From NCBI GenBank assembly GCA_030591525.1, contig JAUVAV010000003.1, forward strand, positions 17,582 to 81,581: a stretch of 64,000 bases of DNA, written 5' to 3'. This document shows positions 31,900-49,494 of the stretch, one piece after another. The position numbers and the translations under genes are program-made. This stretch comes from a candidate division FCPU426 bacterium (GTDB lineage: Bacteria; Oederibacteriota; JAAXVQ01; JAUVAV01). The stretch's first letter is position 1, and each line of letters starts with the position of its first letter. The notes under the pieces are model-generated. The model was not told where the DNA came from and did not search any database. It saw only the letters and a program-made list of their open reading frames with translations.

Positions 31900-32343
31900 A
31901 TGGAAGCCGGATGGAAGGTGTTATCCCGCCAACTGGAGGTTCAGACCCAAGGCCGCGACCAGATAATAGATGTAACCGAGTCTTTGAAAACCTTGCTTAG
32001 TGAAAGCCGGGTGCAGGCAGGACTAGCCACCGTGTTTACTCCCGGAGCCACGGCCTCAGTGACGACGGTGGAATATGAACCCGGACTGGTGGAGGATATC
32101 AAAATCCTGCTCGAAGAGCTTATACCCTGGAAACGCGATTGGGAGCATAATCGCACCTGGGGAGACGGTAACGGCGGCTCTCATCTGCGCGCCGCCCTGA
32201 TCGGTCCTTCGCTGACTGTTCCGGTTGTACAAGGAGAGCTTACCCTGGGCACCTGGCAGCAGATCGTGGTCATAGATCATGATACGCGTCCCCGTTCCCG
32301 TAAGGTCGTACTGCAAGTGATGGGAACACAGCATGCCGTTTAA
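31900..32343 (+). CDS. yjbQ: YjbQ/UPF0047 family protein
   Basis: GNGGSHLRAALIG and LGTWQQI...DHD motifs. Confidence 0.88.
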   Translation: MEAGWKVLSRQLEVQTQGRDQIIDVTESLKTLLSESRVQAGLATVFTPGATASVTTVEYEPGLVEDIKILLEELIPWKRDWEHNRTWGDGNGGSHLRAALIGPSLTVPVVQGELTLGTWQQIVVIDHDTRPRSRKVVLQVMGTQHAV

Positions 32344-35300
32344 GAATTTCGTTCATCTTCACGTCCATACCGACTATTCACTGCTGGACGGCGCCTGCCG
32401 CATAGATGCCCTGATTCAAAGAGCGCGTGAATTGAAAATGCCGGCCCTGGCCATTACCGATCACGGAGCAATGTACGGCGTGATTGAATTCTATTATGCC
32501 TGCTTGAAGCATGGTATCAAGCCGATTATCGGCATGGAAGCTTATGTGGCCCCGGGTTCCCGCAAGGATAGACGCAGTAGTCACGGCATGAAGGACGCCG
32601 CCTACCATTTAACCCTTTTGGCTCGCGATTTGGAAGGTTATCGCAATCTGGTCATGCTCTCAAGCATTGGTTTTCTCCAGGGATTCTACTATAGGCCCCG
32701 CATTGATAAAGAGGTTCTGGCCAAGCACAGCCAAGGTTTGATCGGTCTCTCAGCCTGTCTGCACGGCGAGATTCCCATGCTTATCCAAAAAGGCGAACTT
32801 CCCCTGGCGCGGCAGACAGCCGAAGAATACGAACAAATATTCGGCAAAGGTAATTTTTACCTGGAATTAATGAATCAAAACCTGACCGGTCAGGGAGAGG
32901 TGAACCGTGGGCTGATTGATCTCTCCCGGGAATTGAATATTCCCCTGGTGGCTACGAATGATGTTCATTACCTTCGCCGGGAAGATGCCCTGGCGCACGA
33001 GGCTTTGTTATGCCTGCAGACCGGCACCAACCTGAGCGATGAGCAGCGCATGCGCCTGCCTACCCATGAATTTTATTTAAAATCAGGCCCGGAGATGGAA
33101 TCCCTGTTTCATGAGCTTCCGGAAGCCGGCAGCAATGCCACGGAAATTGCCGGCCGTTGTAACCTCGAGATTCCGGCCGGCCGCATTCAACTGCCGCATT
33201 ATCCCATTCCCTCAGAAATCCTTCCCAAGTTGACGCAGATAATGGAGAAAGGCGCTCCCACGGAACTGGACGCGTATCTGACATGGCTGTGCCAAGAAGG
33301 GTTGAGGCGGCGCTATACCCAGCCTAATGAGGAGCAACAGCGGCGCATGGAGAGGGAATTGGCGGTTATTGGAAAAATGGGTTACGCAGCCTATTTCCTG
33401 ATTGTCTGGGATTTTATTCAGTACGCCCGCGGGCAGGGGATCCCGGTCGGGCCGGGCCGGGGATCAGTGGCCGGCTCGCTGGCAGCGTACCTTTTGGGTA
33501 TAACCGAGATCGATCCTCTGCGTTACGGATTGATCTTTGAACGTTTTCTGAATCCGGAACGCATCAGCATGCCGGATATTGACGTGGATTTCTCGGATAT
33601 TGGACGCGATAAAGTAATCCGCTACGTGACGCAAAAATACGGACAGGAAAACGTAGCCCAGATTATAACTTTTGGCACCATGGCGGCCCGCGCCGCGGTT
33701 CGGGACGTCGGCCGGGTTTTGAATTATTCCTATGGAGAAGTCGACCGCCTGGCCAAGCTGATTCCTCCGACCCTGGACATGAAGCTTGCCAAAGCTCTGG
33801 ATATGGTTCCGGAACTTAAGACCCAAATGAATACGGATGAAAAAGTCCGGCGCCTGCTGGATATCGCGCAAGTCCTGGAAGGGCAGGTACGCCACGCCTC
33901 GACGCATGCCGCGGGGGTGGTGATTTCACGTGATCCGCTCCTGGAAATGGTGCCCTTGTGCCAGACCAAAGCCCGGCGGGGTAAAGAAAAGGGGGAGGGG
34001 ACGGAGAAGGCATCAGCCGAGCGAAACAACGAAGATTCGAGTGTCACGCTCAGCACGCAATATTCCATGGAATCCCTGGAGCGCCTGGGCCTGTTGAAGA
34101 TGGATTTTCTGGGATTGCGTACGCTTACTATTATCGCGGACGCATTGGATGAGATTTCCTGGAAGAATGGAAAACGGCTGGAACTTGAGGACCTTAGTCT
34201 GGATGACGCAAAAACTTTTGACCTGCTGGGAGAGGGACAGACCATCGGTGTTTTTCAGTTGGAATCCATTGGCATGCGGGATTTACTCAGGCGGCTAAAA
34301 CCCCGAAGCCTGAAAGAGATCTGCGCGTTAATAGCGCTCTACCGACCGGGTCCCATGGCTATGATTGACGATTATATTCAGCGCAAGCAGGGCCGGGTCC
34401 AAGTTAAATATATTCATTCGGAACTTGAGAGTATTTTAGGCGAGACTTTTGGAACCATTGTCTACCAGGAACAAGTAATGCAGATCGCAGTACGGCTGGG
34501 AGGATTTTCTTTCAGCCAGGCGGATATTCTGCGGCGGGCTATGAGCAAGAAAAATCCCGAGATTATTGAACAGCAGCGGGATAATTTTATCCAGGGCGCC
34601 AAGGCCAAGGGTATTGAAGCTGATACGGGAGAGGCAATATTTAACCTCATGGCGCGCTTCGGCGAGTACGGATTTAATAAATCGCACAGCCTGGCCTATG
34701 CCTTGCTGGCCTATCAAACCGCCTGGTTAAAAGCCAATTATCCCCTGGCTTACATATCTGCCATGCTTTCCAATGAAATGCAGAATACCGATAAAGTGGC
34801 CTTGTATATTTCCGAATGCCGGCGAATGGGAATCGCGGTAGCTTTGCCGGATATAAATACCGGCCGGGAAAGATTTGGAGTGGATCAGGACCAAATTAGT
34901 TTTGGTTTGGCCGCCATACGTCACGTGGGAGTTAATGCCGCCCGGGCAGTCCGGCAGGAGAGGGAGGCCAAAGGAAATTATTCCGCCTTAACGGATTTCT
35001 GTAACCGGATTGATCTTAGAATTGTGAATGCCCGTGTAATCGAAAGCCTGATTAAGGCCGGCGCCCTGGACAGCCTGGGCCGATCCCGCTCCGCCATGCT
35101 GGCGAACCTGCCGCAATGCCTGGCTTCAGCCCAGAAATGGCAGGAAGAGAAAGAGCGGGGCCAGATGTCTATCTTCGGGGATGTGGGGCCGGATATTCCG
35201 GCCGATCCGGAAGCCGGCCGCGAGGAGCCGGAAAGAGTACGGCTGATGCATGAGAAAGAGGTCCTGGGTTTTTATTTAACCGGTCATCCCCTGGCCCAGC

Positions 35301-35875
35301 ACCAGGATTTGCTGGATACTTTTAGCACTGCTACCACCGGTACTTTAAATAAACTGGCCGAGGGCAGTCAGCTGGTAATCGGTGGAGAAGTAGTTGGCAT
35401 CCGGCACAGCGCTACCAAACGCCGGGAACCCATGCTGCGCTTTTCTCTGGAAGACACGGAAGGACTAACCGAGGTTATTGTCTGGCCGGACCTGCTGGGA
35501 AGCCACAAAGACTATCTGGTCAAGGATGCCATGCTGTTTGTAGTGGGCAAAATGGATTGCAGCGGGGATGAAAACCGGATTATTGCCACGGATATTATTC
35601 CCTTATCCGAAGCTTTTACCCGGCTGGCCAGGCGCCTGCATCTGCACTTACCACCGGCCATGGGCGAGGAACAGTTGGCAGGATTAAAAGAACTATTGGG
35701 AAGTCACTCGGGAGCTACGCCGGTCTATCTGCATCTTACCACCCGGAAGCATAATGAGGTTGTCACCCAACTGCCGGGCCGTTTTAACACTGCCGTGGAT
35801 ACCGGGCTGGTGACCAAGCTGAAAGAGATGGTGGGTCCGGACCGGGTGAAGATCCAAGGGCCGGTGGGAGGGTGA
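32333..35875 (+). CDS. dnaE: DNA polymerase III alpha subunit
   Basis: PHP domain (HLHVHTDYSLLDG), PGRGS, MPDIDVDF, LLKMDFLGL, YGFNKSH and a C-terminal OB fold. Confidence 0.97.
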   Translation: MPFKNFVHLHVHTDYSLLDGACRIDALIQRARELKMPALAITDHGAMYGVIEFYYACLKHGIKPIIGMEAYVAPGSRKDRRSSHGMKDAAYHLTLLARDLEGYRNLVMLSSIGFLQGFYYRPRIDKEVLAKHSQGLIGLSACLHGEIPMLIQKGELPLARQTAEEYEQIFGKGNFYLELMNQNLTGQGEVNRGLIDLSRELNIPLVATNDVHYLRREDALAHEALLCLQTGTNLSDEQRMRLPTHEFYLKSGPEMESLFHELPEAGSNATEIAGRCNLEIPAGRIQLPHYPIPSEILPKLTQIMEKGAPTELDAYLTWLCQEGLRRRYTQPNEEQQRRMERELAVIGKMGYAAYFLIVWDFIQYARGQGIPVGPGRGSVAGSLAAYLLGITEIDPLRYGLIFERFLNPERISMPDIDVDFSDIGRDKVIRYVTQKYGQENVAQIITFGTMAARAAVRDVGRVLNYSYGEVDRLAKLIPPTLDMKLAKALDMVPELKTQMNTDEKVRRLLDIAQVLEGQVRHASTHAAGVVISRDPLLEMVPLCQTKARRGKEKGEGTEKASAERNNEDSSVTLSTQYSMESLERLGLLKMDFLGLRTLTIIADALDEISWKNGKRLELEDLSLDDAKTFDLLGEGQTIGVFQLESIGMRDLLRRLKPRSLKEICALIALYRPGPMAMIDDYIQRKQGRVQVKYIHSELESILGETFGTIVYQEQVMQIAVRLGGFSFSQADILRRAMSKKNPEIIEQQRDNFIQGAKAKGIEADTGEAIFNLMARFGEYGFNKSHSLAYALLAYQTAWLKANYPLAYISAMLSNEMQNTDKVALYISECRRMGIAVALPDINTGRERFGVDQDQISFGLAAIRHVGVNAARAVRQEREAKGNYSALTDFCNRIDLRIVNARVIESLIKAGALDSLGRSRSAMLANLPQCLASAQKWQEEKERGQMSIFGDVGPDIPADPEAGREEPERVRLMHEKEVLGFYLTGHPLAQHQDLLDTFSTATTGTLNKLAEGSQLVIGGEVVGIRHSATKRREPMLRFSLEDTEGLTEVIVWPDLLGSHKDYLVKDAMLFVVGKMDCSGDENRIIATDIIPLSEAFTRLARRLHLHLPPAMGEEQLAGLKELLGSHSGATPVYLHLTTRKHNEVVTQLPGRFNTAVDTGLVTKLKEMVGPDRVKIQGPVGG
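35855..35875 (+). repeat. 21-bp direct repeat, left boundary (dnaE 3' end)
   Basis: CAAGGGCCGGTGGGAGGGTGA, ending exactly at the dnaE stop codon; identical to 43227-43247. Confidence 0.9.
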
Positions 35876-35889
35876 GGGAGAATAATAGA

Positions 35890-37344
35890 ATGTTTGAACA
35901 AATTTTTAAAAATATCGACGACATACTCCACAAAGACGCGGGCTGCTCAAGCGAGCTGGATTATGTGGAGCAGACCTCATGGATTCTCTTTCTGAAATAT
36001 TTGGACGATTTTGAAAAGGATAAAAAAACCGCGGCAGCGCTGTCGGGCAAGACCTACTCAGACATTATCAAACCGGAGTATAAATGGGAAACCTGGGCGG
36101 TGCCCAAAGGCAAAGACGGAAAAATCGATCATCATAAAGCGCTCACCGGTGATGATCTGAAAGACTTGGTTGATCATAAACTAATTCCCTACCTTAAAAA
36201 GTTCAAAGCGAACGCTGTAAGCGCTGACACGATCGAATACAAAATCGGCGAGATTTTCCACGAGCTGAAAAACAAGATACAAAGCGGCTACAACCTGCGC
36301 GAAGTCATTAACCGGATTGATGAACTACGCTTCCGCTCGCATAAAGAAAAGCACGAAATGTCTCACCTGTACGAAGACAAAATCAAGAATATGGGCAACG
36401 CCGGCAGGAACGGGGGCGAATACTATACGCCCCGTCCGCTTATTAAAACCATCGTAAAGGTGGTTGCGCCGGCAATCGGCAGCAAAGTGTATGATGGCGC
36501 GGCCGGTTCGGCGGGCTTTTTGGCGGAAGCTTTTGAATACTTAAAAAAGAGCAAAAATCTGACCACTAAAGACGCGGAAACGCTCCAGAAAAAAACCTTC
36601 TACGGTAAGGAAAAGAAGTCTCTGGCCTACATCATTGGCACAATGAACATGATTCTGCACGGCATCGAAGCGCCCAATATTGTGCATACCAATACCTTGG
36701 CCGAAAACCTGGCCGATATACAGGAAAAAGACCGATACGGTATTATTCTTGCCAATCCTCCCTTTGGCGGAAAAGAACGCGCCGAGGTACAGCAGAACTT
36801 CCCGATCAAAACCGGCGAAACCGCGTTTCTGTTCCTCCAGCATTTCATCAAAATCCTCAAAGCAGGCGGACGGGCTGGTGTGGTGATAAAAAACACGTTT
36901 TTGTCCAATACAGACAATGCCGCCGTCAGCTTGCGCAAACAGCTGCTGGAAAGCTGCAATCTGCATACAGTACTGGATTTGCCCGGCGGTACCTTCACCG
37001 GAGCAGGGGTTAAGACAGTGGTACTGTTTTTTGAAAAAGGCGTGCCTACGCGTAAGGTCTGGTTTTATCAATTAAACCTGGACCGCAACTTGGGCAAGAC
37101 CAATCCGCTGAATGAAAATGATCTGGCAGAATTTGTGAAATTGCAAAAAACCAAGGCCAATTCGGATAATTCCTGGACAGTGAAAGTTGCTGACATGGAT
37201 ACAGATGCCTTTGATCTTGCAGCGAAAAACCCGTATAAAAAGGATGAAGTAGCGCTAAGAGAACCAAAAAAGATATTGGACGAGATGAAGGCCCTGGATA
37301 AGGAAAGCGCAGAGATAATGAAAGCCATAAAGGGATTGGTGTGA
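35890..37344 (+). CDS. hsdM: Type I R-M methyltransferase subunit M (N6-adenine)
   Basis: GEYYTPR, motif I YDGAAGSAGFL, motif IV ANPPFGG. ATG at 35890 (MFEQ) follows a GGGAG RBS; the GTG at 35872 is an alternative start. Confidence 0.93.
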   Translation: MFEQIFKNIDDILHKDAGCSSELDYVEQTSWILFLKYLDDFEKDKKTAAALSGKTYSDIIKPEYKWETWAVPKGKDGKIDHHKALTGDDLKDLVDHKLIPYLKKFKANAVSADTIEYKIGEIFHELKNKIQSGYNLREVINRIDELRFRSHKEKHEMSHLYEDKIKNMGNAGRNGGEYYTPRPLIKTIVKVVAPAIGSKVYDGAAGSAGFLAEAFEYLKKSKNLTTKDAETLQKKTFYGKEKKSLAYIIGTMNMILHGIEAPNIVHTNTLAENLADIQEKDRYGIILANPPFGGKERAEVQQNFPIKTGETAFLFLQHFIKILKAGGRAGVVIKNTFLSNTDNAAVSLRKQLLESCNLHTVLDLPGGTFTGAGVKTVVLFFEKGVPTRKVWFYQLNLDRNLGKTNPLNENDLAEFVKLQKTKANSDNSWTVKVADMDTDAFDLAAKNPYKKDEVALREPKKILDEMKALDKESAEIMKAIKGLV

Positions 37345-37351
37345 ATGTGTT

Positions 37352-37549
37352 GTAGAGACGCGATTAATCGCGTCTCTACAAATGCAAACCCGAAAACAAA
37401 CGCAATGCCATGGGGCGGAGACGCAAAATTTTGCGTCTCTACGAATAATACGAATGTGAATAAATCATATTAAAAACCGGGAAATTCGGATATTGGATAT
37501 TGTGAAGGTGTGTGCATTGAATCCCGTAGGGGCGCGATTCATCGCGCCC
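37352..37549. repeat. GTAG-family REP cluster after hsdM
   Basis: GTAGAGACGCGATTAATCGCGTCTCTAC (37352-37379), GGGGCGGAGACGCAAAATTTTGCGTCTCTAC (37412-37442) and GTAGGGGCGCGATTCATCGCGCCC (37526-37549). Confidence 0.85.
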
Positions 37550-37601
37550 GAAGAAGACGTGAAAGACGGAAAAAATATGGGCGCGAAAGCAGAGAGTTAG
37601 C

Positions 37602-38813
37602 ATGAAAAATAATTGGCAAACAAAAAAACTCGGCGAGGTTTGTGATTTCAAGAGAGGTCTCACATATTCAAAAAGGGATGAGACGGATTTTTCAAGTAAT
37701 GTTGTCTTGAGAGCGAATAATATTGATTTTAAAACAAACTCACTAGAATTATCTGATTTGAGATACATAAAAGACAGCATTAAAATCTCAAAAGATAAAA
37801 AAGTAAGCAAAGGTTCTATTGTTATTTGCACCGCTAGTGGAAGCAAAAGTCATTTAGGAAAAGTGGCACTTATTGATGGTAACTATGATTTTGCTTTTGG
37901 CGGATTTATGGGGCAAATGATACCAGGACAAATCGTTGATTCGAAATATTTTTATTACACCTTAACCTCTGTAGCTTACAAGAAATTCATAGGGAAATTG
38001 ACTGATGGTGTAAATATAAACAATCTTAAGTTTGTTGATTTGAAGGAATATTCAATCTCCATCCCCCCGCTCCCCGAACAACGCCGCATTGTCGCAATCC
38101 TCGACAAAGCCTTCACCGCCATCGCCAAGGCAAAAGAAAACGCTAAAAAGAATCTTGCCAATAGCCGCGAACTTTTTGAGTCTTATTTGCAGAGCGTTTT
38201 TGCCAATCCGGGCGATGGGTGGGAAGAGAAGAAGTTGGGGGATGTGTGTGATATCACATCGAGCAAAAGAATTTTCAAGAAAGAATATGTAAATAGCGGA
38301 ATTCCTTTTTATCGTTCAAAAGAAATTAAGGAGTTAGCAAATAACAATAAAATATCACTAAAATATTTTATTTCTATAGAAAAATATAATGAGATCAAAA
38401 ACAAATATGGAGTACCACGCAAAGGAGACATATTATTAACCGCAGTTGGGACAATTGGCGAAATGTACGTGGTCAATGAAGGTGATGTGTTCTATTTCAA
38501 AGATGGAAATATTGTGTGGTTAAGGAATTTTAAAACAATAGATACTTATTATTTAAGATGTGCTTTGACAGCATTTGTTGAAAAAATCAAATCTCTTTCG
38601 ATAGGTTCTGCATATAACGCATTAACAATTGAAAAATTAGTAGAATATGCAATCCCCATCCCACCCCTCCCCGAACAACGTCGCATCGTCTCCAAACTTG
38701 ACTCCCTCTCCGCCGAAACCAGGAAGCTCGAAGCCATCTGCCGGCAAAAACTGGCCGGTCTTGAAGAGTTGAAAAAATCTGTTTTACAAAAAGCATTTAA
38801 CGGAGAATTGTAA
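37602..38813 (+). CDS. hsdS: Type I R-M specificity subunit S
   Basis: Two AT-rich TRDs, each starting KKLGEVCD/KKLGDVCD and each followed by IPPLPEQRRIV helices; ends QKAFNGEL. Confidence 0.93.
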   Translation: MKNNWQTKKLGEVCDFKRGLTYSKRDETDFSSNVVLRANNIDFKTNSLELSDLRYIKDSIKISKDKKVSKGSIVICTASGSKSHLGKVALIDGNYDFAFGGFMGQMIPGQIVDSKYFYYTLTSVAYKKFIGKLTDGVNINNLKFVDLKEYSISIPPLPEQRRIVAILDKAFTAIAKAKENAKKNLANSRELFESYLQSVFANPGDGWEEKKLGDVCDITSSKRIFKKEYVNSGIPFYRSKEIKELANNNKISLKYFISIEKYNEIKNKYGVPRKGDILLTAVGTIGEMYVVNEGDVFYFKDGNIVWLRNFKTIDTYYLRCALTAFVEKIKSLSIGSAYNALTIEKLVEYAIPIPPLPEQRRIVSKLDSLSAETRKLEAICRQKLAGLEELKKSVLQKAFNGEL

Positions 38814-38968
38814 TGCCAAATCATATGCATGGCATTATCATCATTGAAAGATTCGGGATTGTTGTAGAGACGAGATTAATCGCGTCTCTACAAATGCAAA
38901 CCCCAAAAACAAACGCAAATTCATGGGGCGGAGACGTGAAACGGGACGTGTTTGATTTAAGAACTTAA
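38813..38968 (+). pseudogene. HUH/Y1 (RAYT-like) transposase remnant with REP; 51-aa mini-ORF
   Basis: MPNHMHGIIIIE matches the MPNHvH HUH motif of IS200/RAYT transposases. It runs into a REP (38864-38891) and ends VKRDVFDLRT*. Confidence 0.65.
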
Positions 38969-39050
38969 GCATTTAAATGCAATTGAAAATTGACAATGGA
39001 TAATTGATAATGTGAGTCATTGCGCGTCAGGGAATTTAGGGGCATATAAT
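38935..39050 (+). repeat. ~120-bp direct repeat, copy 1
   Basis: CGTGAAACGGGACGTGTTTGATTTAAGAACTTAAGCATTTAAATGCAATTGAAAATTGACAAT...GTCATTGCGCGTCAGGGAA...TTTAGGGGCATATAAT; repeated at 39687-39810. Confidence 0.88.
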
Positions 39051-39171
39051 AAAAGGAAGTGAGGTCGTGACATTTTGTCACGGACTGAAATTGAACAATT
39101 GCTGGTGCCAGGCACCTGATTTCTGAATAATAGACATAGATGTGAATAGCATCAAACTATCGAGGTGAATC

Positions 39172-39720
39172 ATGTCTGAACACGAATTGGATATAGAAAA
39201 AATACGCGACCAAGCAGCAAACCGAACTCTTGGTAGTGTCCTTTTTAACTTGGCTAATGCATATAACATTGCCGAACAGAAGATTGGGGAGGAACTAGAT
39301 CAATCAAAGAACGCATATTTATCTGCGCCTGCTATTATGTGCAAAAGTTTTTCGATTGAATTATTATTAAAATTATTTATTGTCTATTCATATCCAAATA
39401 TTAAATCAAAGGATGATATTGATTCTTCTGGAGTTAGCTTGCATGGACATAAATATTCTGTATTGTATGATAGAATTAATCATCGGCTTAGGACAGAAAT
39501 TGCTAAATTATTTACTGCTGTTTTAGGCATAGAGACCGACGAGACGAAATTCAGGGAAAAGCTAATAGAAATAGGAGATGATCCATTTGTATATTGGAGA
39601 TACGTTTACGAAAAGGGTGAAAGCAAGTTTAATAGTGACCTGGCAGAAAAAATACTGCGGGCATTGGGAAGAGCAGCTGCAGAGTCCGTGAAACGGGACG
39701 TGTTTGATTTAAGAACTTAA
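39172..39720 (+). CDS. Hypothetical protein, HEPN-like
   Basis: AT-rich helical ORF with FSIELLLK and LHGHKYSVLY segments reminiscent of HEPN-family proteins; not confirmed by a profile search. Confidence 0.5.
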   Translation: MSEHELDIEKIRDQAANRTLGSVLFNLANAYNIAEQKIGEELDQSKNAYLSAPAIMCKSFSIELLLKLFIVYSYPNIKSKDDIDSSGVSLHGHKYSVLYDRINHRLRTEIAKLFTAVLGIETDETKFREKLIEIGDDPFVYWRYVYEKGESKFNSDLAEKILRALGRAAAESVKRDVFDLRT

Positions 39721-39837
39721 GCATTTAAATGCAATTGAAAATTGACAATTGATAATGTGAGTCATTGCGCGTCAGGGAAGCTGACGGGGCAATCTTTAGG
39801 GGCATATAATGAAATTACTTCGCTACGTTCGCAATGA
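39687..39837 (+). repeat. ~120-bp direct repeat, copy 2, continuing into a CGTC-family-like palindromic repeat
   Basis: Matches 38935-39050. GTCATTGCG...GCAATCT...ATTACTTCGCTACGTTCGCAATGA (39761-39837) has the GTCATTGCG/CGCAATGAC architecture. Confidence 0.75.
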
Positions 39838-39946
39838 TGAAATGTCAGGCAAGTAGAGTTGTAAGACAGAATTTCTGCAAGGGGATTTAAAAATGTTGGT
39901 CTAAGTGTGTAGAACTATTATTCTACACATAGGAGGAATAAGTAAC

Positions 39947-40296
39947 ATGTCTAAAGGTTTAACGATTTTTCAGGGTAAGGCGATCAGAAGGACATATTAT
40001 AACGATAAGTGGTGGTTTTCGGTTGTGGATATCGTTGCCGCTCTTACCGACAGTCCTACTCCCAGGCAATATTGGGGCAAGGTAAAACAGCGGGAATTTG
40101 TAAAATTTCAGTTGTCCCCAATTTGGGTACAACTGAAATTGTCCTCAAAAGACGGTAAAAGCTATAAAACAGACTGTGTAGACACAAGGTTGCCAGGCGC
40201 GGGGGTAAAGTTGCCGGAAATGCCAGGAAAGAGACTGAAAAAGAGCTGGACAGAAGCGTTATTTCGAAACAGAATTATCTGGAAAAAGGGGAATAA
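39947..40296 (+). pseudogene. Bro-N/antirepressor-like gene, internally deleted
   Basis: AGGAGG RBS, then MSKGLTIFQGKAIRR...KWWFSVVDIVAALTDS...YW...YKTDC. This joins out of frame (~40185) to a C-terminal segment VARRGGKVAGNARKETEKELDRSVISKQNYL*. Confidence 0.7.
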
Positions 40297-40350
40297 GCCT
40301 GTAAACGAGCCTGTAAATGAGCCTGTAAAAATCAACGAACGTGAAACGGG

Positions 40351-40522
40351 CGAATTATCAGGCTATACAAGTATTTGCAGAATAAAAAAGAATTTGTGCT
40401 TAGCAAGCAGCTTTTAAGAAGCGGAACAGCGGTGGGCGCAATTTTTAAGTATCAATACAGATTCTATAGAGATACTCAAATTATTAACAAGCATCATAAA
40501 AACATCAAAAAACAGGAAATGA
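40351..40522 (+). pseudogene. Four-helix-bundle protein gene remnant, internally deleted
   Basis: RIIRLYKYLQNKKEFVLSKQLLRSGTAVGA joined out of frame to SINTDSIEILKLLTSIIKTSKNRK*; these are the N- and C-terminal parts of the four-helix-bundle family. Confidence 0.7.
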
Positions 40523-40583
40523 AAGGAGTGCAATTGAGACGGAATAATTATCAATTATCTATTTTCAATTGTGCATTATAGAA

Positions 40584-42896
40584 ATGAACGAAGCGGAAAC
40601 CAGAGCAGAACTTATTGACCCCAAGCTGAAAGCCAGCGGCTGGGGCGTAATCGAGGGATCAAAAGTCCTGCGTGAATACCCTATCACTGCCGGTAAAATT
40701 CAGACCCACGGCGGACGCGCCAGGCCGCTGATTGCCGATTATGTGCTGGTGTATCAGGGCCGCAAACTTGCTGTTGTCGAGGCCAAAAGTGATGAGCTGG
40801 GAGTGGGCGAAGGGGTAGCGCAGGCGAAGAACTACGCTGAAAAAATGCGCCTGGACACGACCTTTGCCAGCAACGGCAAGGAGGTTTACCGGATATGTAT
40901 GAATACCGGCAATGAAGGTTTGATCGCAGCTTTTCCCACACCGGATGAACTCTGGAACAAGACTTTTGCCATTCAAAACCAGTGGCGGGAAAACTTTGAT
41001 CAAGTGCCATTTGAGGATGTAGGTGGAACCAAGGAGGTACGCTATTATCAGGAAATCGCGGTTAATAATACCATGGCCGCTATTGCCGAAGAAAAACCGC
41101 GCATTTTGCTTACTCTGGCAACCGGTACGGGTAAAACCTTTATTGCTTTTCAAATAGCCTGGAAACTTTTTCAGACCCGCTGGAACTTGAAGCGCGACGG
41201 TTCTCGCAGGCCGCGCATCTTGTTCTTAACCGATAGAAATATACTTGCAGATCAAGCGTTTAATGCTTTTTCCGCATTTTCTGAAGATGCGCTGGTCCGT
41301 ATTAACCCTAAAGAAATCAGAAAGAAGGGGAGCGTGTTGACCAATGGCAGCATTTTCTTTACCATCTTTCAGACCTTTATGAGCGGCCCGGATAATACGA
41401 CGTATTTTGGCGAATATCCTGCGGATTACTTTGATTTTATCATTATAGACGAGTGCCATCGCGGCGGCGCAAACGATGAGGGGAACTGGCGCGGTATTTT
41501 GGAATATTTTTCGCCGGCTGTTCAGCTTGGTTTGACCGCAACGCCCAAACGTAAGGACAATGTGGATACTTACCGCTATTTCGGCGAGCCGGTGTATATC
41601 TATTCGCTCAAGGAGGGGATCAACGACGGCTTTCTGACGCCGTTCAAGGTAAAGCGGATCAAAACCACGATAGATGACTATATCTATACTTCGGATGACC
41701 GGATTATCGAGGGTGAAATAGAAGAAGGCAAAATTTATACAGAACCGGATTTCAATAAAATTATCGAGATCAAAGAACGTGAAGCCAAGCGGGTGCGGAT
41801 ATTTCTCTCTGAAATCAATCAGAATGAAAAGGCTATTGTTTTCTGCGCCACCCAGGATCATGCGCTGGCGGTGCGGGATTTAGTCAACCAATATAAAAAA
41901 AGCCGGGAACCGAACTACTGCGTCCGCGTTACTGCCAATGACGGCGCGCTGGGCGAGCAATATTTGCGGGAATTTCAGGATAATGAAAAAACCATCCCGA
42001 CGATTCTCACTACCTCGCAAAAGCTCTCCACCGGCGTGGATGCCCGCAATATTCGCAGTATCGTACTAATGCGGCCGGTCAATAAAATAATCGAGTTCAA
42101 GCAGATCATCGGTCGAGGTACACGGCTGTTTGACGGCAAAGAGTATTTCACCCTCTATGATTTTGTCGATGCGTATCATCATTTTGCTGACCCGGAATGG
42201 GATGGCGAGCCTGTGGAGCCGTCTGGAAAACCAGATGAACCAGAAAAATTTTCATGGTCGGATGGCGGGGAAGAAGATGATGGAGATTATGCTATCAAAG
42301 AAAAAAGAAGGAAACTAAGAATAAAATTAGGCGATGGCAAAGCAAGAGAAATACAACATATGATTTCCACCTCTTTTTGGAGTGCGGACGGAAAACCGAT
42401 TTCAGCGGAAGAGTTTCTGCAAAATCTGTTTGGCGCGCTGCCGGCTTTTTTCAAATGCGAAGAAGAACTGCGCAAAATATGGTCTAACCCGATTACCCGC
42501 CAGGCATTTCTGGGAAAACTCGCTGCCGCCGGGTACGGCAAGGACGAATTAGCTGCTTTGCAGAAATTGATCGACGCTGAAAAAAGCGATCTATTTGATG
42601 TGCTCGAATATGTCTCTTTTGCGATGAAACCGATTACCCGGGAAATGCGGGTGGCACAGGCACAAGCAAAAATATTTGCCGGGTTGGATAATAATCAGAA
42701 AGATTTTTTGGAATTTGTACTCGGCAAATACATTGAGACCGGTGTCGAAGAACTTGGCCAGGAAAAACTACCCGGCCTGCTGACGCTGAAATACCAGGCC
42801 ATCAGCGATGCAGAAGAGATATTGGGCGGCGTTCAAAATATTCGCGCTACCTTTATTGATTTTCAAAAGTATTTATATGTCCAACAGGCCGCGTAA
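40584..42896 (+). CDS. hsdR: Type I R-M restriction subunit R (EcoEI-like architecture)
   Basis: MNEAETR start, nuclease motif ADYVL...VVEAK, Walker A LATGTGKT, DECHR, LTATP and QIIGRGTR. Confidence 0.92.
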   Translation: MNEAETRAELIDPKLKASGWGVIEGSKVLREYPITAGKIQTHGGRARPLIADYVLVYQGRKLAVVEAKSDELGVGEGVAQAKNYAEKMRLDTTFASNGKEVYRICMNTGNEGLIAAFPTPDELWNKTFAIQNQWRENFDQVPFEDVGGTKEVRYYQEIAVNNTMAAIAEEKPRILLTLATGTGKTFIAFQIAWKLFQTRWNLKRDGSRRPRILFLTDRNILADQAFNAFSAFSEDALVRINPKEIRKKGSVLTNGSIFFTIFQTFMSGPDNTTYFGEYPADYFDFIIIDECHRGGANDEGNWRGILEYFSPAVQLGLTATPKRKDNVDTYRYFGEPVYIYSLKEGINDGFLTPFKVKRIKTTIDDYIYTSDDRIIEGEIEEGKIYTEPDFNKIIEIKEREAKRVRIFLSEINQNEKAIVFCATQDHALAVRDLVNQYKKSREPNYCVRVTANDGALGEQYLREFQDNEKTIPTILTTSQKLSTGVDARNIRSIVLMRPVNKIIEFKQIIGRGTRLFDGKEYFTLYDFVDAYHHFADPEWDGEPVEPSGKPDEPEKFSWSDGGEEDDGDYAIKEKRRKLRIKLGDGKAREIQHMISTSFWSADGKPISAEEFLQNLFGALPAFFKCEEELRKIWSNPITRQAFLGKLAAAGYGKDELAALQKLIDAEKSDLFDVLEYVSFAMKPITREMRVAQAQAKIFAGLDNNQKDFLEFVLGKYIETGVEELGQEKLPGLLTLKYQAISDAEEILGGVQNIRATFIDFQKYLYVQQAA

Positions 42897-43198
42897 TTGC
42901 ATGGCATTTTGATATTATTCGATACAATTGCATTGGATAACGTAGGGGCGCGATTCATCGCGCCCCAAAAAGCCTTTAATGGGGAATTGGCATGTCAAAT
43001 CATGTGCATGGCATTATCATAATTGAAAAATCCGGAACCGATGTAGAGACGCCCAAATTGGGCGTCTCTACAAATGAAAACCCAAAAACAAACGCAATTG
43101 CATGGGGTAGAGACGCAAAATTTTGCGTCTCTACGACAAATGCCGTCACAACTATGCGTGAAATTTGGAAAAATGGGCGTGATAAATCACGCCCCTAC
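42897..43198 (+). pseudogene. Mosaic of HUH-transposase remnants, an hsdS 3'-end remnant and GTAG REPs
   Basis: LHGILILF...VGARFIAP (REP 42942-42966), QKAFNGELA (42966-42991), MSNHVHGIIIIE (42992), REPs at 43043-43071, 43107-43134 and 43175-43198. Confidence 0.75.
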
Positions 43199-43226
43199 GA
43201 AACCAAAACCGCAACGACCAAAATCG

Positions 43227-43247
43227 CAAGGGCCGGTGGGAGGGTGA
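43227..43247 (+). repeat. 21-bp direct repeat, right boundary
   Basis: CAAGGGCCGGTGGGAGGGTGA, identical to 35855-35875; supplies the GGAGG RBS for the next gene. Confidence 0.9.
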
Positions 43248-43255
43248 AGCAAAAC

Positions 43256-46200
43256 ATGAAAAATTATTTCGGACACTTGTTGGCAGTGGCAGCATTGCTC
43301 CTGGCCTGGCAATTGCCGGCCAACAGTTCTCTTTATCCGGAGCCCCAGGGAGCCGACCAGGCGATTAAAGCGCGGACCAGCCAGGCCAAGAGCCAGGGTT
43401 TACTTGAACGGGCATGGAGGGAACATTTGTACAAGGCTAACAATGCCAAAGCCGTCAAGTATGCCCGGGAAGTATTGTCGAAAGAGGCCGACAACTATGC
43501 GGCGCATGAATTGCTGCTGAATATTTATCAAATGCAGGGAGATTATGCCGGGATGTTTACGCATTTGCTGGCCATGCTCGAACAGGACCGGGCGGAAAAC
43601 TGCATTTATTTACCGGGCGTGATTTATTCAAAAAGCAACCGCGATGCCCTCTGGCTTACATCGCAGCAACAGGAACAACTGGAGGCGGTTTTAGCCAGGA
43701 AAATCGCGGACCCCAAGGTTCCGCCCCTGCAGCAATATTATCAATCCAGATTGCTCTCCGCCCTTTATCTGGAAACCGGCCGGTTGGACAAAGTTCGAGA
43801 GATTGCGGACCGGCTGGGATTTATCAGGAAATGGCTGGTGATCGGTCCGTTTGAGAACCAGGAAAAATTGGGTTTTGATGAAGCCTACGCGCCGGAAGAG
43901 GAGATTAATTTGAAGAAGGCGTACCCGGGCATGCGGGGCATAGTGAAATGGCAAAAACTCGGTGCTATGCGAAACAACGGGACCGTGGATTTAAATAGCG
44001 TATTTTACCCCCAGGAATGGACCGCCGGATATGCGCTGACTTATGTGTATTCGCCGAAGGACCGAATGGCTGCTATCAGGACCGGCAGCGATGATTCCCT
44101 GAAAATCTGGTTTAATGAAGAGTTGGTTTTAAACGATGCAACCTGCAAAGGCTATCAAGCCGAACAGCATGTGATTGGAATTAAACTCCGCTGGGGGTGG
44201 AATAAAATCCTGGTTAAAGTCTGTCAAGGGGGTGGAGCCTGGGAATTCGGTCTAAGGTTGACGGATCCCGCAGGAATGCCGCTGACGGACCTGAAATATA
44301 CCCTGGATCCCAAGCTTTATACCGGGTGGGAACAAGTATCCGGGCAAAAGGGGGCTGAGGTGACCGGGATGGAAAGATATCTCCTGGAGAGACTGGCAAA
44401 AACTCCGCAGGATGAAAGCAGCCTGTATTATCTGGCGCGTAATTATAAGAATGAAGACCAACGGGAGGAAGCAATCCGGGTGTATGAAAGATTGCTGAAA
44501 CAAAACCCGGCATGTGCGCGCTACTGGCTGGAAGCCGGGGAAGTTTATTTCCTGGGCGACCGGCCGACCCAGGGACTGGCCGCTTATCAAAAAGCAGTGG
44601 AAATGGATCCGGATTATTGTGAAGCACGTATCTGCCTGGCCAAATATTATTATGGAAAAAAAATGTATAAGAAATCCGAGATGGAATTGAAGCGGGTCTT
44701 AAAAAATAATCCGGCACAGGTAGAAGCTATCCTCTGGACCGGCCAGAATCACGAAGTTCAGACCCAATGGGAAGAAGCTTATAGGCAAGGCCAGTCTGCC
44801 TTGCAACAAAGGCCCGGGTTGAGCTGGGCCCTTAATGCAGCCGGTTACTGGGCTGCCCAGCGTGGTTTCCAGGAAGAAGCCCTGGGTTATTATCAGAAAG
44901 CTCTCAAAAAGCAATTTGCTTTCTCTGCGACATACTATAATTTGGCGCACATTTACAGAAACCAAGGTCAATACGAAAAAGTCGTCCAAACCTATCAAGC
45001 CCTTTTAAAGATTCAAGATCTGAACCTGGATCTGTATATGCAAATCGCCGCAACTTACCGGCAATGGAAAAAATATGACAAAGCTATACAGACCTGTAAG
45101 CAGGTATTGGAACTTTGTTCTACACACGCCGGGGCGTTTGAGTTGCTCGGCAGAATTAATTTTGATAAGGGGGACCGAGCGCAAGCCAGGAGCAATCTGG
45201 AAAAATCCCTGCAGTACCAGCCGAACAACATGTTGTTACGTGAATACATTAAAAAAATATTTTCCTTTCAGGACAAGATTTTTGAGCAATATGGCCTGAG
45301 TGAAAAAACCTGCGAAAAAATCCGGCAGAGGAAAGTAGAGCCTGGACAATTTCCCAAGTGTGCGGCTGCTTCCCTGTTGAACCAGGTGGTTACGCATGTA
45401 TTTGCAGACGGCTCCTATTCCCAAATGCAGCATGTGCTGGTAAAAATTCTCGCGGATTCCGGTCGTGATACTTTTGGCTCGGCTTATTTACCGGATGATC
45501 CTTCCGTGAAAATCCTTAAGGCCTATACCCTTAAACCCGATGGGAAAAAAGTGGAACCCACGGATATTCGCAACGGCAAAATTGTATTTGCTGCGGTAGA
45601 ACCAGGGGTGATAATTGAATACCAATATACCTATGATACGTATTACGGAGGATGGCTGAAAGGCTATTATTATTCCCATCTGCCTTTTCAAATTCTCGAT
45701 ACTCCAATGTTAAACTGTGAATGGGTTGTAGCCTTGCCGCGGGATCAGAAGCTGAACACTTACACTAACGGAAAAATAGCGCACCACACCAGGATCAGGG
45801 CGGATGAGCAAGTCCATATTTGGCGGGCGGAAAATCTGGAACCGATTTATTCCGAGCCTTTTCAGCCGGCTTATCAGGATCTGGCAGCGGGGGTATATAT
45901 TTCTACGATTCCTTCCTGGGAATTCATGGCCAAATGGGCGGCCAATTTGGTTAAGGACCAGATGGAACTGGACGAGGCGCTGAAAGCTAAACTGGCGGTT
46001 TTAACCGCCAACCAGCCTACTTTGCAGGATAAGATCCGCAGTATCTATAATTTTGTAGCTAAGGATATCCGTTATGAACGCCGGGGGGACACTAGGATCT
46101 TCGGTGTGAAACCTCAAAAAGCAGCGAATATCTATGCGGATGGTTATGGTGTCTGCAAGGACAAAGCTTTACTGCTGATCGCGCTTTTGAGAGCAATTGA

Positions 46201-47074
46201 TGTCCCGGCGTATTTTGCCCTCGTGGAAACCAATAATTTAGGACATCTGGTGAAAGACCTGCCTTTTTCATGGTTCAATCATGCGATTGTGTGTTTGGCC
46301 TGGGATAAAGAAAAACCCTTATTCCTGGATCCTACCTTCAATTACACAACATGCGGTGACATGTGGGATTATACCCAGGACAATGATGCTTTTGTATGCA
46401 AAGAAAGTGGTTATGAATTTATCCGCACGCCGGTCTTGCCGATGCCGGAACAGAACAGCCAGGATGATATCATCATTCTGCCTGACGGCCAAATTCAGGT
46501 GACCGGGTCATCGCAAATCAAGGGATATATTGCAGCTTTGCTGCGTCATGAATACAGCATCCCGGGTAAGCGTAAGGAGCTTTTAGAGAAGCAAATTAAT
46601 CAGGAACTTTCCGGCGCTAAAGTCGAAAAATGCGAGGTAAAAGACTGGGAAAATATCAATCTGCCGCTGGGTATTGACTACCAATTTAACGCACCGGCTT
46701 TTGCGCATTTGTCGAAGAATGAAATGCGATTTAAAGTGTTGGGAGTGTACACGCCCGGAGAAGTATACACTGAAAAGAGTGAGCGTTTGTATGATCTGAT
46801 TCTGGAATTTTCTGTAAACAATACGGATCAACAGACATATCAGTTGCCCGCGAATTATCAAGTGAACACTCTGCCCGGGAGTTTGGTTATTGACACAAAA
46901 TGGTTTAAATACGAACGGACCTGGATAAAGCAGAAAAATGCCTTGCAATGCAACCGGGCACTGGAATTCAAAGTAAAGCGGGTGAAAAAAGATGAGTATG
47001 CTAAATTCCGGGAAACCTGCACACGCGTGGATGCCGCGGAAAAAGAACAGGTTGTTTTATCGCTAAAGCCCTGA
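43256..47074 (+). CDS. Secreted TPR + DUF3857/transglutaminase-like domain protein
   Basis: Signal peptide MKNYFGHLLAVAALLLAW, a beta-sandwich insert (WLVIGPF...GSDDSLKIW...GWNKILVK), a TPR array, and the transglutaminase-like triad GVCKDKA / FNHAI / LDPT. Confidence 0.85.
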   Translation: MKNYFGHLLAVAALLLAWQLPANSSLYPEPQGADQAIKARTSQAKSQGLLERAWREHLYKANNAKAVKYAREVLSKEADNYAAHELLLNIYQMQGDYAGMFTHLLAMLEQDRAENCIYLPGVIYSKSNRDALWLTSQQQEQLEAVLARKIADPKVPPLQQYYQSRLLSALYLETGRLDKVREIADRLGFIRKWLVIGPFENQEKLGFDEAYAPEEEINLKKAYPGMRGIVKWQKLGAMRNNGTVDLNSVFYPQEWTAGYALTYVYSPKDRMAAIRTGSDDSLKIWFNEELVLNDATCKGYQAEQHVIGIKLRWGWNKILVKVCQGGGAWEFGLRLTDPAGMPLTDLKYTLDPKLYTGWEQVSGQKGAEVTGMERYLLERLAKTPQDESSLYYLARNYKNEDQREEAIRVYERLLKQNPACARYWLEAGEVYFLGDRPTQGLAAYQKAVEMDPDYCEARICLAKYYYGKKMYKKSEMELKRVLKNNPAQVEAILWTGQNHEVQTQWEEAYRQGQSALQQRPGLSWALNAAGYWAAQRGFQEEALGYYQKALKKQFAFSATYYNLAHIYRNQGQYEKVVQTYQALLKIQDLNLDLYMQIAATYRQWKKYDKAIQTCKQVLELCSTHAGAFELLGRINFDKGDRAQARSNLEKSLQYQPNNMLLREYIKKIFSFQDKIFEQYGLSEKTCEKIRQRKVEPGQFPKCAAASLLNQVVTHVFADGSYSQMQHVLVKILADSGRDTFGSAYLPDDPSVKILKAYTLKPDGKKVEPTDIRNGKIVFAAVEPGVIIEYQYTYDTYYGGWLKGYYYSHLPFQILDTPMLNCEWVVALPRDQKLNTYTNGKIAHHTRIRADEQVHIWRAENLEPIYSEPFQPAYQDLAAGVYISTIPSWEFMAKWAANLVKDQMELDEALKAKLAVLTANQPTLQDKIRSIYNFVAKDIRYERRGDTRIFGVKPQKAANIYADGYGVCKDKALLLIALLRAIDVPAYFALVETNNLGHLVKDLPFSWFNHAIVCLAWDKEKPLFLDPTFNYTTCGDMWDYTQDNDAFVCKESGYEFIRTPVLPMPEQNSQDDIIILPDGQIQVTGSSQIKGYIAALLRHEYSIPGKRKELLEKQINQELSGAKVEKCEVKDWENINLPLGIDYQFNAPAFAHLSKNEMRFKVLGVYTPGEVYTEKSERLYDLILEFSVNNTDQQTYQLPANYQVNTLPGSLVIDTKWFKYERTWIKQKNALQCNRALEFKVKRVKKDEYAKFRETCTRVDAAEKEQVVLSLKP

Positions 47075-47129
47075 AACCAGCTTGAACTCCAGGGCGTGCT
47101 GCCATTGCGGGATGGCCTGCGATCAAAAT

Positions 47130-49448: not shown

Positions 49449-49494
49449 GATAAGGCAGGCGGAAAAACCTGTCAATAGGTGGAATTTGATTTTA

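What the first reader, a model, noticed from the sequence alone, without database searches (positions are those of the whole stretch)
35855..43247. Integrase-less defence island inserted at the dnaE stop codon with a perfect 21-bp direct repeat
Seen: CAAGGGCCGGTGGGAGGGTGA at 35855-35875 (last codons and stop of dnaE) and again at 43227-43247. Removing the 7,372 bp between them would put dnaE 8 nt from the ATG of the TPR/transglutaminase gene, with its GGAGG RBS intact. The insert holds hsdM-hsdS-hsdR and no recombinase; the only mobility traces are HUH remnants and REPs. Known: islands usually target tRNA/tmRNA or a few housekeeping 3' ends via tyrosine integrases. Inference: dnaE is used here as an attachment site, by a trans-acting integrase or an HUH/REP-dependent route. 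The repeat also places hsdM directly behind an essential replication gene.
Basis: partly seen in the sequence, partly recalled or inferred. Interest (0 to 1): 0.75.

Follow-up and report, generated by a model that had tools for sequence, protein, structure and literature searches.

The report
Restriction island flanked by duplicated dnaE tail
A 7.4-kb foreign block carrying a type I restriction-modification defence system sits just behind the essential polymerase gene dnaE between two perfect 21-base repeats, and a sister strain shows the exact empty site; this is a clear new example of an already described, recombinase-free-looking way such systems sit in genomes, at a spot where several different cargoes are swapped.

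Summary
CAAGGGCCGGTGGGAGGGTGA occurs exactly twice (35855-35875, 43227-43247; none expected by chance). It brackets a low-GC block holding an EcoAI-family type I R-M operon, two small ORFs and decayed copies of a RAYT-like HUH gene. No recombinase is present.

The predicted single-copy junction exists. A cold-seep strain 99.0-99.8% identical over most of dnaE reads dnaE, one 21-mer, 8 nt, then the TPR gene ATG.

The integrase or HUH attachment-site reading is not supported.
- The R-M genes are as diverged between ~90%-identity lineages as dnaE itself, so the block is old.
- The empty allele differs from the window by a ~10%-divergent 121-nt tract beside the junction, which fits old alleles exchanged by homologous recombination.
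- Outgroups and one genus member have dnaE running straight into a convergent Wzy-like gene, so both the R-M block and the TPR gene are cargo at one hotspot.
- Each cargo block is preceded by the same dnaE tail and followed by the same AAAATC remnant.

This suggests two cargo alleles were stacked by unequal, microhomology-mediated recombination. It is a new member of the known class "R-M insertion with target duplication". Interest is modest.

The parts
32333..35875 (+). dnaE (DNA polymerase III alpha, 1180 aa). Its last 17 nt before GTGA are ancestral. The GTGA that supplies the stop is shared by all cargo-bearing alleles and is absent from the bare allele.
   Evidence: Pfam domains; junction table against L023
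35855..35875 (+). Left copy of the 21-bp direct repeat (last 6 codons plus TGA of dnaE)
35890..37344 (+). hsdM, type I methyltransferase; ATG 14 nt after the dnaE stop, with GAGGGAG as the likely Shine-Dalgarno (SD) site
   Evidence: N6_Mtase and HsdM_N; PADLOC MTase_I 525 bits
37345..37563 (+). Decayed RAYT-gene fragment (two 'REP1' hairpins GTAGAGACG..CGTCTCTAC) plus a REP2 hairpin
   Evidence: repeat families D1, D3, D4, D7; translation VETRLIASLQ / ETQNFASLR
37602..38813 (+). hsdS, specificity subunit with two target-recognition domains. These differ from L002's, and only the conserved regions align.
   Evidence: Methylase_S x2; blastn against L002
38787..38967 (+). hsdS 3' tail followed by a truncated RAYT-like ORF (PNHMHGIIIIERFGIVVETRLIASLQ...KRDVFDLRT*)
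   Evidence: D2 repeat; alignment to L002's intact 176-aa gene
39172..39720 (+). 182-aa ORF of unknown function, bracketed by ~116-bp direct repeats (38935-39050 / 39687-39810)
   Evidence: no Pfam, PADLOC or NCBIfam hit; D5 and D8
39905..40417 (+). 170-aa remnant of a Bro-N-domain protein (intact at 276 aa in L002)
   Evidence: PADLOC PDC-S13 N-terminal match; L002 homologue hits Bro-N; blastn
40584..42896 (+). hsdR, EcoAI/FtnUII-family (type IB) restriction subunit
   Evidence: NF046051 796 bits against cut-off 550; Pfam ResIII and EcoEI_R_C
42929..43226 (+). Right-hand module: a REP2 hairpin, a second decayed hsdS 3' tail, an HUH stub (MSNHVHGIIII), two REP1 hairpins with more RAYT coding remnants, and a REP2 hairpin. 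It ends in AAAATC, the same 6 nt that precede the Wzy-like gene's stop.
   Evidence: D2, D4, D7; homologous to the dnaE-TPR spacer of L001/L011/L013; junction table
43227..43247 (+). Right copy of the 21-bp repeat; it carries the GGAGG Shine-Dalgarno (SD) site for the TPR gene
43256..47074 (+). TPR/DUF3857/transglutaminase-core protein with a signal-peptide-like N-terminus. It is itself accessory cargo, absent from L002, L023 and the outgroups.
   Evidence: Pfam; contexts
47130..49556 (-). Convergent Wzy_C/TPR membrane protein gene. This is the native right neighbour of dnaE in outgroups and in L023.
   Evidence: Pfam; L019, L020, L023

Best explanation
The repeat marks the ends of an old, non-autonomous cargo block: a type IB R-M operon plus decaying RAYT-like HUH gene copies. 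The block lies in a cargo hotspot between the convergent genes dnaE and a Wzy-like gene.

In the ancestral (bare) allele dnaE runs ...CAAGGGCCGGTGGGAGG|AAACAT|TAATT into the Wzy-like gene's stop. All cargo alleles share one opened junction (GGGAGG|GTGA...), and this junction supplies a new dnaE stop. Within the genus, single-cargo alleles exist (dnaE|TPR, and dnaE|R-M), as does the window's double allele.

In the window each cargo is preceded by the same 21 nt (17 native nt plus GTGA) and followed by the same native AAAATC. The middle joint reads AAAATC-G-CAAGGG. The simplest reading is that an R-M allele and a TPR allele were stacked in tandem. This would need one unequal, microhomology-mediated crossover, AAAATC against dnaE's AAGATC, with a 1-nt filler. 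Such an event duplicates the dnaE tail.

The duplicate is kept because the left copy ends dnaE and the right copy holds the TPR gene's Shine-Dalgarno sequence. Since then the alleles have been gained, lost and eroded by homologous recombination in the flanks and by microhomology deletions, not by a dedicated recombinase.

Shown: the repeat, the empty site, the bare allele, the age of the block, the absence of a recombinase in the island, in L002's island and in the 17 larger window ORFs scanned, and the joint sequences.
Inferred: the stacking event and its mechanism.
For: - The repeat is exact and non-random.
- The empty-site contig was seen from both sides.
- That strain is 99.0-99.8% identical to the window over dnaE 32.9-35.5 kb. 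It has 13 differences in 35713-35833 and 11 in 334 nt at the TPR start.
- R-M divergence equals core divergence between the window and L002.
- Bare alleles are present: L023 within the genus, and L019 and L020 as outgroups.
- The junction table shows native AAAATC before both the right 21-mer and the Wzy stop, and GTGA shared by all cargo alleles.
- An R-M-only allele exists (L002), and an X7 contig joins a 36-nt stretch (4 mismatches) resembling the module's end directly to the Wzy-like gene's stop.
- The L001 type keeps only the right module plus a degenerate copy of the 21-mer (alignment p about 0.02).
- There is no recombinase in the island, in L002's island or in the window ORFs scanned.
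- The same pattern is published for R-M units (PMC2853133).
Against: - The stacking event is inferred from sequence alone.
- The AAAATC match is only 6-7 nt and was noticed post hoc. The AAGATC/AAAATC similarity upstream of the repeats is not significant on its own.
- The X7 junction rests on a 36-nt match with 4 mismatches.
- R-M and TPR alleles share the GTGA junction, so they are not independent insertions into the bare allele, and extra steps are needed.
- Divergent patches also occur elsewhere in dnaE (32400-32870), so the patch beside the junction could be coincidental.
- Only contigs were available, not raw reads, so rare excision products could not be seen.
Confidence: 0.5

Rival explanations
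1. Site-specific integration. A tyrosine or serine recombinase, since lost from the island or encoded elsewhere, integrated a circular R-M element into a 21-bp attB at the dnaE 3' end of a dnaE|TPR genome. This would leave attL and attR, making the island a CIME-like remnant (an integrase-less island that keeps its att sites).
For: - A perfect 21-bp direct repeat overlaps a gene's 3' end and restores it, as in many integrase targets.
- The exact single-copy site exists in a sister strain.
- 21 bp falls in the range that Furuta et al. set aside as typical of site-specific recombination (<30 bp).
- Relatives of this R-M cassette can ride on islands with a large serine recombinase (L016).
Against: - No recombinase or remnant is present in the island, in L002's version or in the window. 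The intergenic gaps are too small to hide one.
- The empty and filled alleles differ in the flanking 121 nt by ~10%.
- The island is as old as the lineage split.
- The 21-mer is not found in viral contigs, and the island is not found in plasmids.
- The repeat ends exactly where the cargo alleles stop being alike, and AAAATC sits beside attR. The recombination model predicts both features; this model does not.
Confidence: 0.22
2. Direct recombinase-free 'insertion with target duplication' of the R-M unit into a dnaE|TPR genome, as proposed for R-M complexes (for example staggered breaks or break repair linked to restriction activity). No second allele would be involved.
For: - The pattern matches published cases. 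One is a Haemophilus influenzae type I M-S-R block, interrupted by other genes, with a 46-bp duplication overlapping a gene's 3' end (PMC2853133).
- There is no mobility gene, the GC is low, and an empty site is known.
- The hsdR family is 80-86% identical across phyla, including archaea, so it is highly transferable.
Against: - The repeat is shorter than that paper's 30-bp operational threshold.
- This model does not explain the AAAATC remnant next to the right repeat, or the existence of R-M-only alleles with the same left junction.
- The mechanism itself is undefined in the literature.
Confidence: 0.2
3. HUH/RAYT-driven mobilisation. The RAYT-like Y1 enzyme (intact in L002, decayed in the window) would move the block as single-stranded DNA using the flanking hairpins.
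For: - L002's island encodes a 176-aa protein with HUH (HVH) and Y (RFYDHII) motifs and a sub-threshold REP_Tyr_transpos match.
- Decayed copies lie after each hsd gene and at the island's right end, next to the right repeat.
- In run X3, a REP2-like sequence directly follows the stop of a dnaE that is 100% identical to the window.
Against: - IS200/IS605 and RAYT-type enzymes are not known to make target duplications or to carry 7-kb cargo (established knowledge).
- The 'REP1' hairpins are internal parts of the gene's own coding sequence (VETQxxASLQ), not terminal sites.
- No intact copy is present in the window.
- The match is below the curated cut-off (43 against 80 bits).
Confidence: 0.04

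Closest known systems
R-M gene complexes inserted with long target duplication (Nobusato et al. 2000; Furuta, Abe & Kobayashi 2010, PMC2853133)
   Same: R-M genes with no linked mobility gene, flanked by direct repeats of a sequence that is single-copy at the empty site of a related genome. The repeat overlaps the 3' end of a neighbouring gene. The published Haemophilus influenzae case is likewise a type I M-S-R block interrupted by other genes.
   Different: - The repeat is 21 bp, below the paper's 30-bp working threshold.
- Population data here suggest a concrete origin, the stacking of two alternative cargo alleles.
- The neighbouring 'host' gene on the right is itself cargo.
CIMEs (cis-mobilizable elements: islands that have lost integration and transfer genes but keep attL/attR; ICEberg 2.0, PMC6323972)
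   Same: Integrase-less island bounded by direct repeats, with a matching single-copy site in relatives.
   Different: - No related integrase-bearing element, attP or excision product was found.
- The flanks of the empty and filled alleles are divergent.
- The repeat boundaries coincide with the limits of allele homology.
Allelic defence hotspots exchanged by flanking homology (e.g. the E. coli hsd/immigration-control region, cited in PMC2853133)
   Same: One chromosomal position between conserved genes holds alternative cargo (R-M, other genes, or nothing) in related strains. hsdS target-recognition domains differ between alleles.
   Different: - Here two alleles appear stacked in tandem with a duplicated gene tail.
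- The hotspot is the overlap of two convergent genes, one of which is dnaE.
EcoAI/FtnUII (type IB) restriction-modification systems
   Same: HsdR matches the equivalog model well above its cut-off. The locus has the hsdM-hsdS-hsdR order with accessory genes between S and R.
   Different: The operon is interspersed with decayed RAYT-like gene fragments and a duplicated hsdS 3' tail. Activity is untested.

Membership tests
R-M insertion with long target duplication (Furuta et al. 2010) | R-M genes flanked by direct repeats | tested here: met
   Exact 21-bp repeats at 35855-35875 and 43227-43247 bracket hsdM-hsdS-hsdR
R-M insertion with long target duplication (Furuta et al. 2010) | The repeat is single-copy at an empty site in a related genome | tested here: met
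   The X15 807-nt contig reads dnaE end, one 21-mer, 8 nt, then the TPR ATG
R-M insertion with long target duplication (Furuta et al. 2010) | No linked integrase or transposase | tested here: inconclusive
   No recombinase domain was found. However, decayed RAYT-like HUH fragments are present in the window, and an intact-looking copy is present in L002.
R-M insertion with long target duplication (Furuta et al. 2010) | Repeat longer than 30 bp (the authors' operational cut-off) | tested here: not met
   The repeat is 21 bp, and extension beyond it is not significant
Integrase-mediated island / CIME | attL and attR direct repeats with a matching attB | tested here: met
Integrase-mediated island / CIME | A cognate recombinase in the element, a related element or the genome | tested here: not met
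   None is present in the island, in L002's island or in the window ORFs scanned. The 21-mer is absent from viral contigs.
Integrase-mediated island / CIME | Excised circle or precise excision joint in the same population | not testable with these tools
   Only Logan contigs were served, and they drop rare variants. No such joint was seen in X1-X4.
Type I R-M, EcoAI/FtnUII family (type IB) | HsdR matches the family equivalog above its cut-off, and HsdM and a two-TRD HsdS are present | tested here: met
   NF046051 796 bits (cut-off 550); N6_Mtase plus HsdM_N; Methylase_S x2
REP-associated tyrosine transposase (RAYT) | Y1 HUH protein matching the family model above its cut-off, with flanking REP hairpins | tested here: inconclusive
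   The L002 176-aa ORF scores 43 bits against cut-off 80 and has no Pfam hit. HUH and Y motifs are visible. The hairpin lies inside the ORF.

The most novel reading that the evidence does not exclude
Duplication of the 3' tail of the upstream gene may be the signature of a general, recombinase-free way of accumulating cargo. Alternative alleles of one hotspot would be stacked in tandem by microhomology crossovers, so that defence and other accessory genes pile up behind a conserved gene. The same locus shows the pattern three times: the dnaE tail (21 bp), the hsdS tail with the HUH stub (86 bp, 84% identity), and a 50-nt piece of the Wzy-like gene. If so, 'insertion with target duplication' would have a concrete population-level mechanism.
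Probability: 0.15. Interest if true: 0.65.

Novelty: new member of a known kind. Interest (0 to 1): 0.35.

Why it matters
The case gives an unusually complete set of natural alleles for one cargo hotspot: bare, TPR-only, R-M-only, double and eroded. The organism is an uncultured cold-seep bacterium. The record of the closest genome calls it Candidatus Firestonebacteria.

The alleles show that a repeat-flanked, integrase-less defence island need not be a mobile element with an attachment site. The repeat can be a by-product of recombination between alternative alleles. It can then be kept because it carries a stop codon on one side and a ribosome-binding site on the other. That warns against inferring attachment sites from direct repeats alone. 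It also suggests a testable mechanism for the long-unexplained 'insertion with target duplication' of R-M systems.

Tried and rejected
As a result I could not search the whole genome for integrases, other 21-mer copies or the genome-wide REP distribution.
- The metagenome-contig scan with the DnaE C-terminus found only distant relatives.
- More distant TPR/TGase homologues (54% and 30% identity) are not next to dnaE.
- No contig joint 35875 to 43248 and no circle joint was seen in the runs that hold the window's form. These are contigs only, so absence is weak evidence.
- The 21-mer is absent from viral contigs, and the island has no near match in plasmids.
- Rfam gave no family in 35500-43600.
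- An extension of the repeat upstream (AAGATC/AAAATC) was considered as evidence of a longer old duplication. It is not significant by shuffling.
- Recent homology-facilitated illegitimate recombination, with the right flank identical to the empty-site strain, was rejected. The TPR start differs at 11 of 334 nt.
- The idea that the REP1 hairpins are independent REP elements was rejected. They are internal parts of the RAYT-like coding sequence.
Full report
**Observation.** The 21-mer CAAGGGCCGGTGGGAGGGTGA occurs exactly twice in the window, at 35855-35875 and 43227-43247. No additional copy appears at up to 2 mismatches, and no matches occurred in 100 shuffles.

The left copy is the last six codons and the TGA of a complete DnaE. 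The right copy ends 8 nt before the ATG (43256) of a 1272-aa TPR/DUF3857/transglutaminase-core protein with a signal-peptide-like start. Between the copies lie:
- hsdM (35890-37344; ATG 14 nt after the dnaE stop)
- hsdS (37602-38813)
- a 182-aa ORF without any family match
- a 170-aa remnant of a Bro-N protein
- hsdR (40584-42896)

HsdR is an EcoAI/FtnUII-family (type IB) enzyme: NF046051 scores 796 bits against a cut-off of 550. GC falls to 35-49% inside the block, against 50-57% outside. Both junctions occur without differences in Logan contigs of cold-seep runs. A 21-bp repeat cannot create a false join at k=31.

**What the 'HUH stubs and REPs' are.** A relative, L002, has a larger version of the island. 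In it a 176-aa ORF lies between hsdS and hsdR, with an HUH motif (PNHVHGIV), a tyrosine motif (RFYDHII) and a sub-threshold match to REP-associated tyrosine transposases (43 bits, cut-off 80). Pfam gives no hit.

The palindrome I first called REP1 (GTAGAGACG..CGTCTCTAC) lies inside this ORF and encodes VETQDIASLQ. The window's three 'modules' (37345-37452, 38814-38967, 42992-43226) translate to pieces of this protein. They are therefore decayed gene copies, not independent REP elements. The copy after hsdR is preceded by a second, decayed hsdS 3' tail (42966-43051 is 84% identical to 38787-38872).

No integrase, resolvase or transposase domain was found in the island, in L002's island or in the 17 larger ORFs of the window that I scanned.

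**The predicted empty site exists.** In run X15, from a different cold-seep study, an 807-nt contig matches window 35675-35875 and then continues AGCAAAACATGAAAAAATATTTC. Seen from the other side, it matches 43227-43560, preceded by ...GGTCCGGACCGGGTGAAGATC. This is exactly dnaE, one 21-mer, 8 nt, then the TPR gene.

This strain is 99.0-99.8% identical to the window across dnaE 32.9-35.5 kb, so it is a sister strain. It carries 13 differences packed into 35713-35833, and 11 in the first 334 nt of the TPR gene. Run X5 holds the same haplotype.

A recent site-specific excision or integration would leave flanks identical up to the core. A divergent tract tightly linked to the junction is what old alleles moved by homologous recombination look like. 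One caution applies: similar divergent patches also occur at the 5' end of dnaE.

**Age and variety of the locus.** The window, L001 and L002 are about equidistant, at 88-92% nucleotide identity. Between the window and L002 the identities are dnaE 90.1%, hsdM 90.1%, hsdR 93.2% and the downstream Wzy-like gene 90.4%. The R-M genes have therefore sat behind dnaE since before these lineages split.

Downstream of the dnaE stop, related populations carry different sequences:
- hsdM directly (window, X11, and X7 at 91.6% identity)
- 28 extra nt, then hsdM (L002)
- the HUH stub and spacer, then the TPR gene with no R-M (L001, L011, L013, X17)
- a REP2-like sequence behind a dnaE 100% identical to the window (X3)
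- another REP-like sequence (X13, X14, L021, L022)
- a REP1-type hairpin (X16)
- the TPR gene directly (X15)

L002 lacks the TPR gene altogether; there hsdR is followed by the Wzy-like gene. L001's 350-nt spacer is homologous to the window's right-hand module. In place of the right 21-mer it has CATTGACCGGT-AAATTTATTTA-AGGAGCG. This aligns to the 21-mer better than 97.6% of shuffles, so it is plausibly a degenerate copy with an AT-rich insertion.

**The ancestral arrangement.** Two outgroups (DnaE 65-66% identical) share the guaB-guaA-yjbQ-dnaE ... ChlI-parA-parB synteny. In both, dnaE is followed directly by the convergent Wzy_C/TPR gene. One member of the genus, L023 (~90% nucleotide identity), has the same arrangement. 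There dnaE ends ...CAAGGGCCGGTGGGAGG AAACAT TAATTAA (GGNIN*) and overlaps the Wzy-like gene's end.

It follows that both the R-M block and the TPR/transglutaminase gene are cargo, inserted between GGGAGG and AAA(C/A)AT. The GTGA that ends dnaE in every cargo allele is not ancestral. It is shared by all cargo alleles, so the site was opened once and its contents have turned over since.

**How the repeat probably arose.** The junction table shows three things:
- The window's TPR cargo ends ...GCGATC AAAATC | TAATTGAT (Wzy stop).
- L002's R-M cargo ends ...TTG AAAATAC | TAATTAAT.
- The window's R-M block ends ...CGACC AAAATC G | CAAGGGCCGGTGGGAGG GTGA | AGCAAAAC ATG.

Each cargo in the window is thus preceded by the same 21 nt and followed by the same native remnant. 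The middle joint places native-right next to native-left. That is the layout of a tandem duplication whose two copies hold different cargo.

One unequal crossover would produce it. It would run between the AAAATC at the right end of an R-M allele and the AAGATC 21 nt before the stop of a dnaE|TPR allele, which is a 5-of-6 microhomology, with one filler base (G in the window, A in L001). This also explains why the repeat ends exactly at TGA, where the alleles cease to be alike. Both parental-type alleles exist: X15 for TPR-only, and L002 and probably X7 for R-M-only.

L001 shares the same joint, so the event predates the window-L001 split. L001 then lost the R-M genes, and its junction TGAGG|AGTTGG is compatible with a microhomology deletion between GGGAGAAT and the second hsdS tail GGGGAATT.

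This chain is inference. The AAAATC match is short and was noticed post hoc, the X7 evidence is a 36-nt match, and the upstream similarity alone is not significant.

**Rivals.**
- *A lost or trans-acting integrase (CIME-like island).* This remains possible. A 21-bp repeat that restores a gene end is typical of such events, and relatives of this cassette can lie on islands with a serine recombinase. Against it: I found no recombinase, no attP-like 21-mer in viral contigs and no plasmid relative. The divergent flanks, the age of the block and the AAAATC remnant are also not predicted.
- *Direct 'insertion with target duplication'.* This has been described for R-M units of all types. One published case is a Haemophilus influenzae type I M-S-R block with a 46-bp duplication overlapping a gene end (PMC2853133). 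It is the closest published pattern, and the present case may be one of its mechanisms.
- *An HUH/RAYT route.* This is unlikely. Such enzymes are not known to make target duplications, and the hairpins here are coding remnants.

**Function.** The cargo is a complete-looking type IB R-M operon placed 14 nt behind dnaE, so it is probably co-transcribed with it. This was not tested, because no RNA reads were laid. The hsdS recognition domains differ between the window and L002, as expected for diversifying specificity. HsdR relatives at 80-86% identity occur in Planctomycetota, Omnitrophota, Atribacterota and Methanosarcina, so the cassette family is highly transferable.

**Verdict.** The repeat and the empty site are real. 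The attachment-site interpretation is not supported. The case is a new, well-documented member of the known class of repeat-flanked, recombinase-less R-M insertions. It lies in a multi-allelic cargo hotspot, and there is a plausible recombinational origin for the duplication.

Earlier notes of this scan describe the same class in other genomes. I used them as leads only.

Noticed in passing
window 47070-47119 vs 47202-47252: Just after the TPR gene's stop lies a 50-nt direct copy (42 of 51 identical) of an internal 3' part of the convergent Wzy-like gene. It is present only in TPR-bearing alleles (window, L012). This is another duplicated gene-tail fragment at a cargo boundary.
   Followed up: partly
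window 42992-47074: The longest ORF, and the protein on record for the 101.7-kb contig (P0063, 1360 aa), start at the ATG of the decayed HUH stub and read through the right 21-mer into the TPR gene. The start conserved in relatives is 43256 (1272 aa; MKNYF...).
   Followed up: partly
window 38935-39050 / 39687-39810: Direct repeats of about 116 bp (94-99% identical) bracket the 182-aa ORF of unknown function. Each repeat starts with the RAYT C-terminus (..KRDVFDLRT*). L002 has one copy, downstream of its intact RAYT-like gene.
   Followed up: partly
window 39824-40451: The Bro-N-like remnant has word depths of 90-220x in four metagenome runs, where the rest of the island has about 5-10x. This sequence is therefore shared by many other organisms or elements in the samples.
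   Followed up: no
L002 14002-16197: A 731-aa ORF in L002's island has only a weak HSDR_N-like match (E 3e-5) and no other family. It is an uncharacterised accessory gene between hsdS and the RAYT-like gene, and it is absent from the window.
   Followed up: no
window 40292-40329: Three tandem 12-nt units (AATAAGCCTGTAAA-type) lie inside the Bro-N remnant ORF.
   Followed up: no
window 32400-32870: The X5/X15 strain is >99% identical to the window through most of dnaE. It shows 6-8% divergence at the 5' end of dnaE, which indicates frequent mosaic recombination in this population.
   Followed up: no
L001 9727-10853; L011 5900-6616; L014 2589-3032: In L001-type genomes the TPR gene is followed by a beta-helix (NosD-like) gene instead of the Wzy-like gene. 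The right side of the hotspot is therefore rearranged as well.
   Followed up: no
L016 1185-2951: An 84%-identical hsdR relative lies in an island next to a 588-aa large serine recombinase. A near-identical locus, L015, lacks that gene.
   Followed up: no
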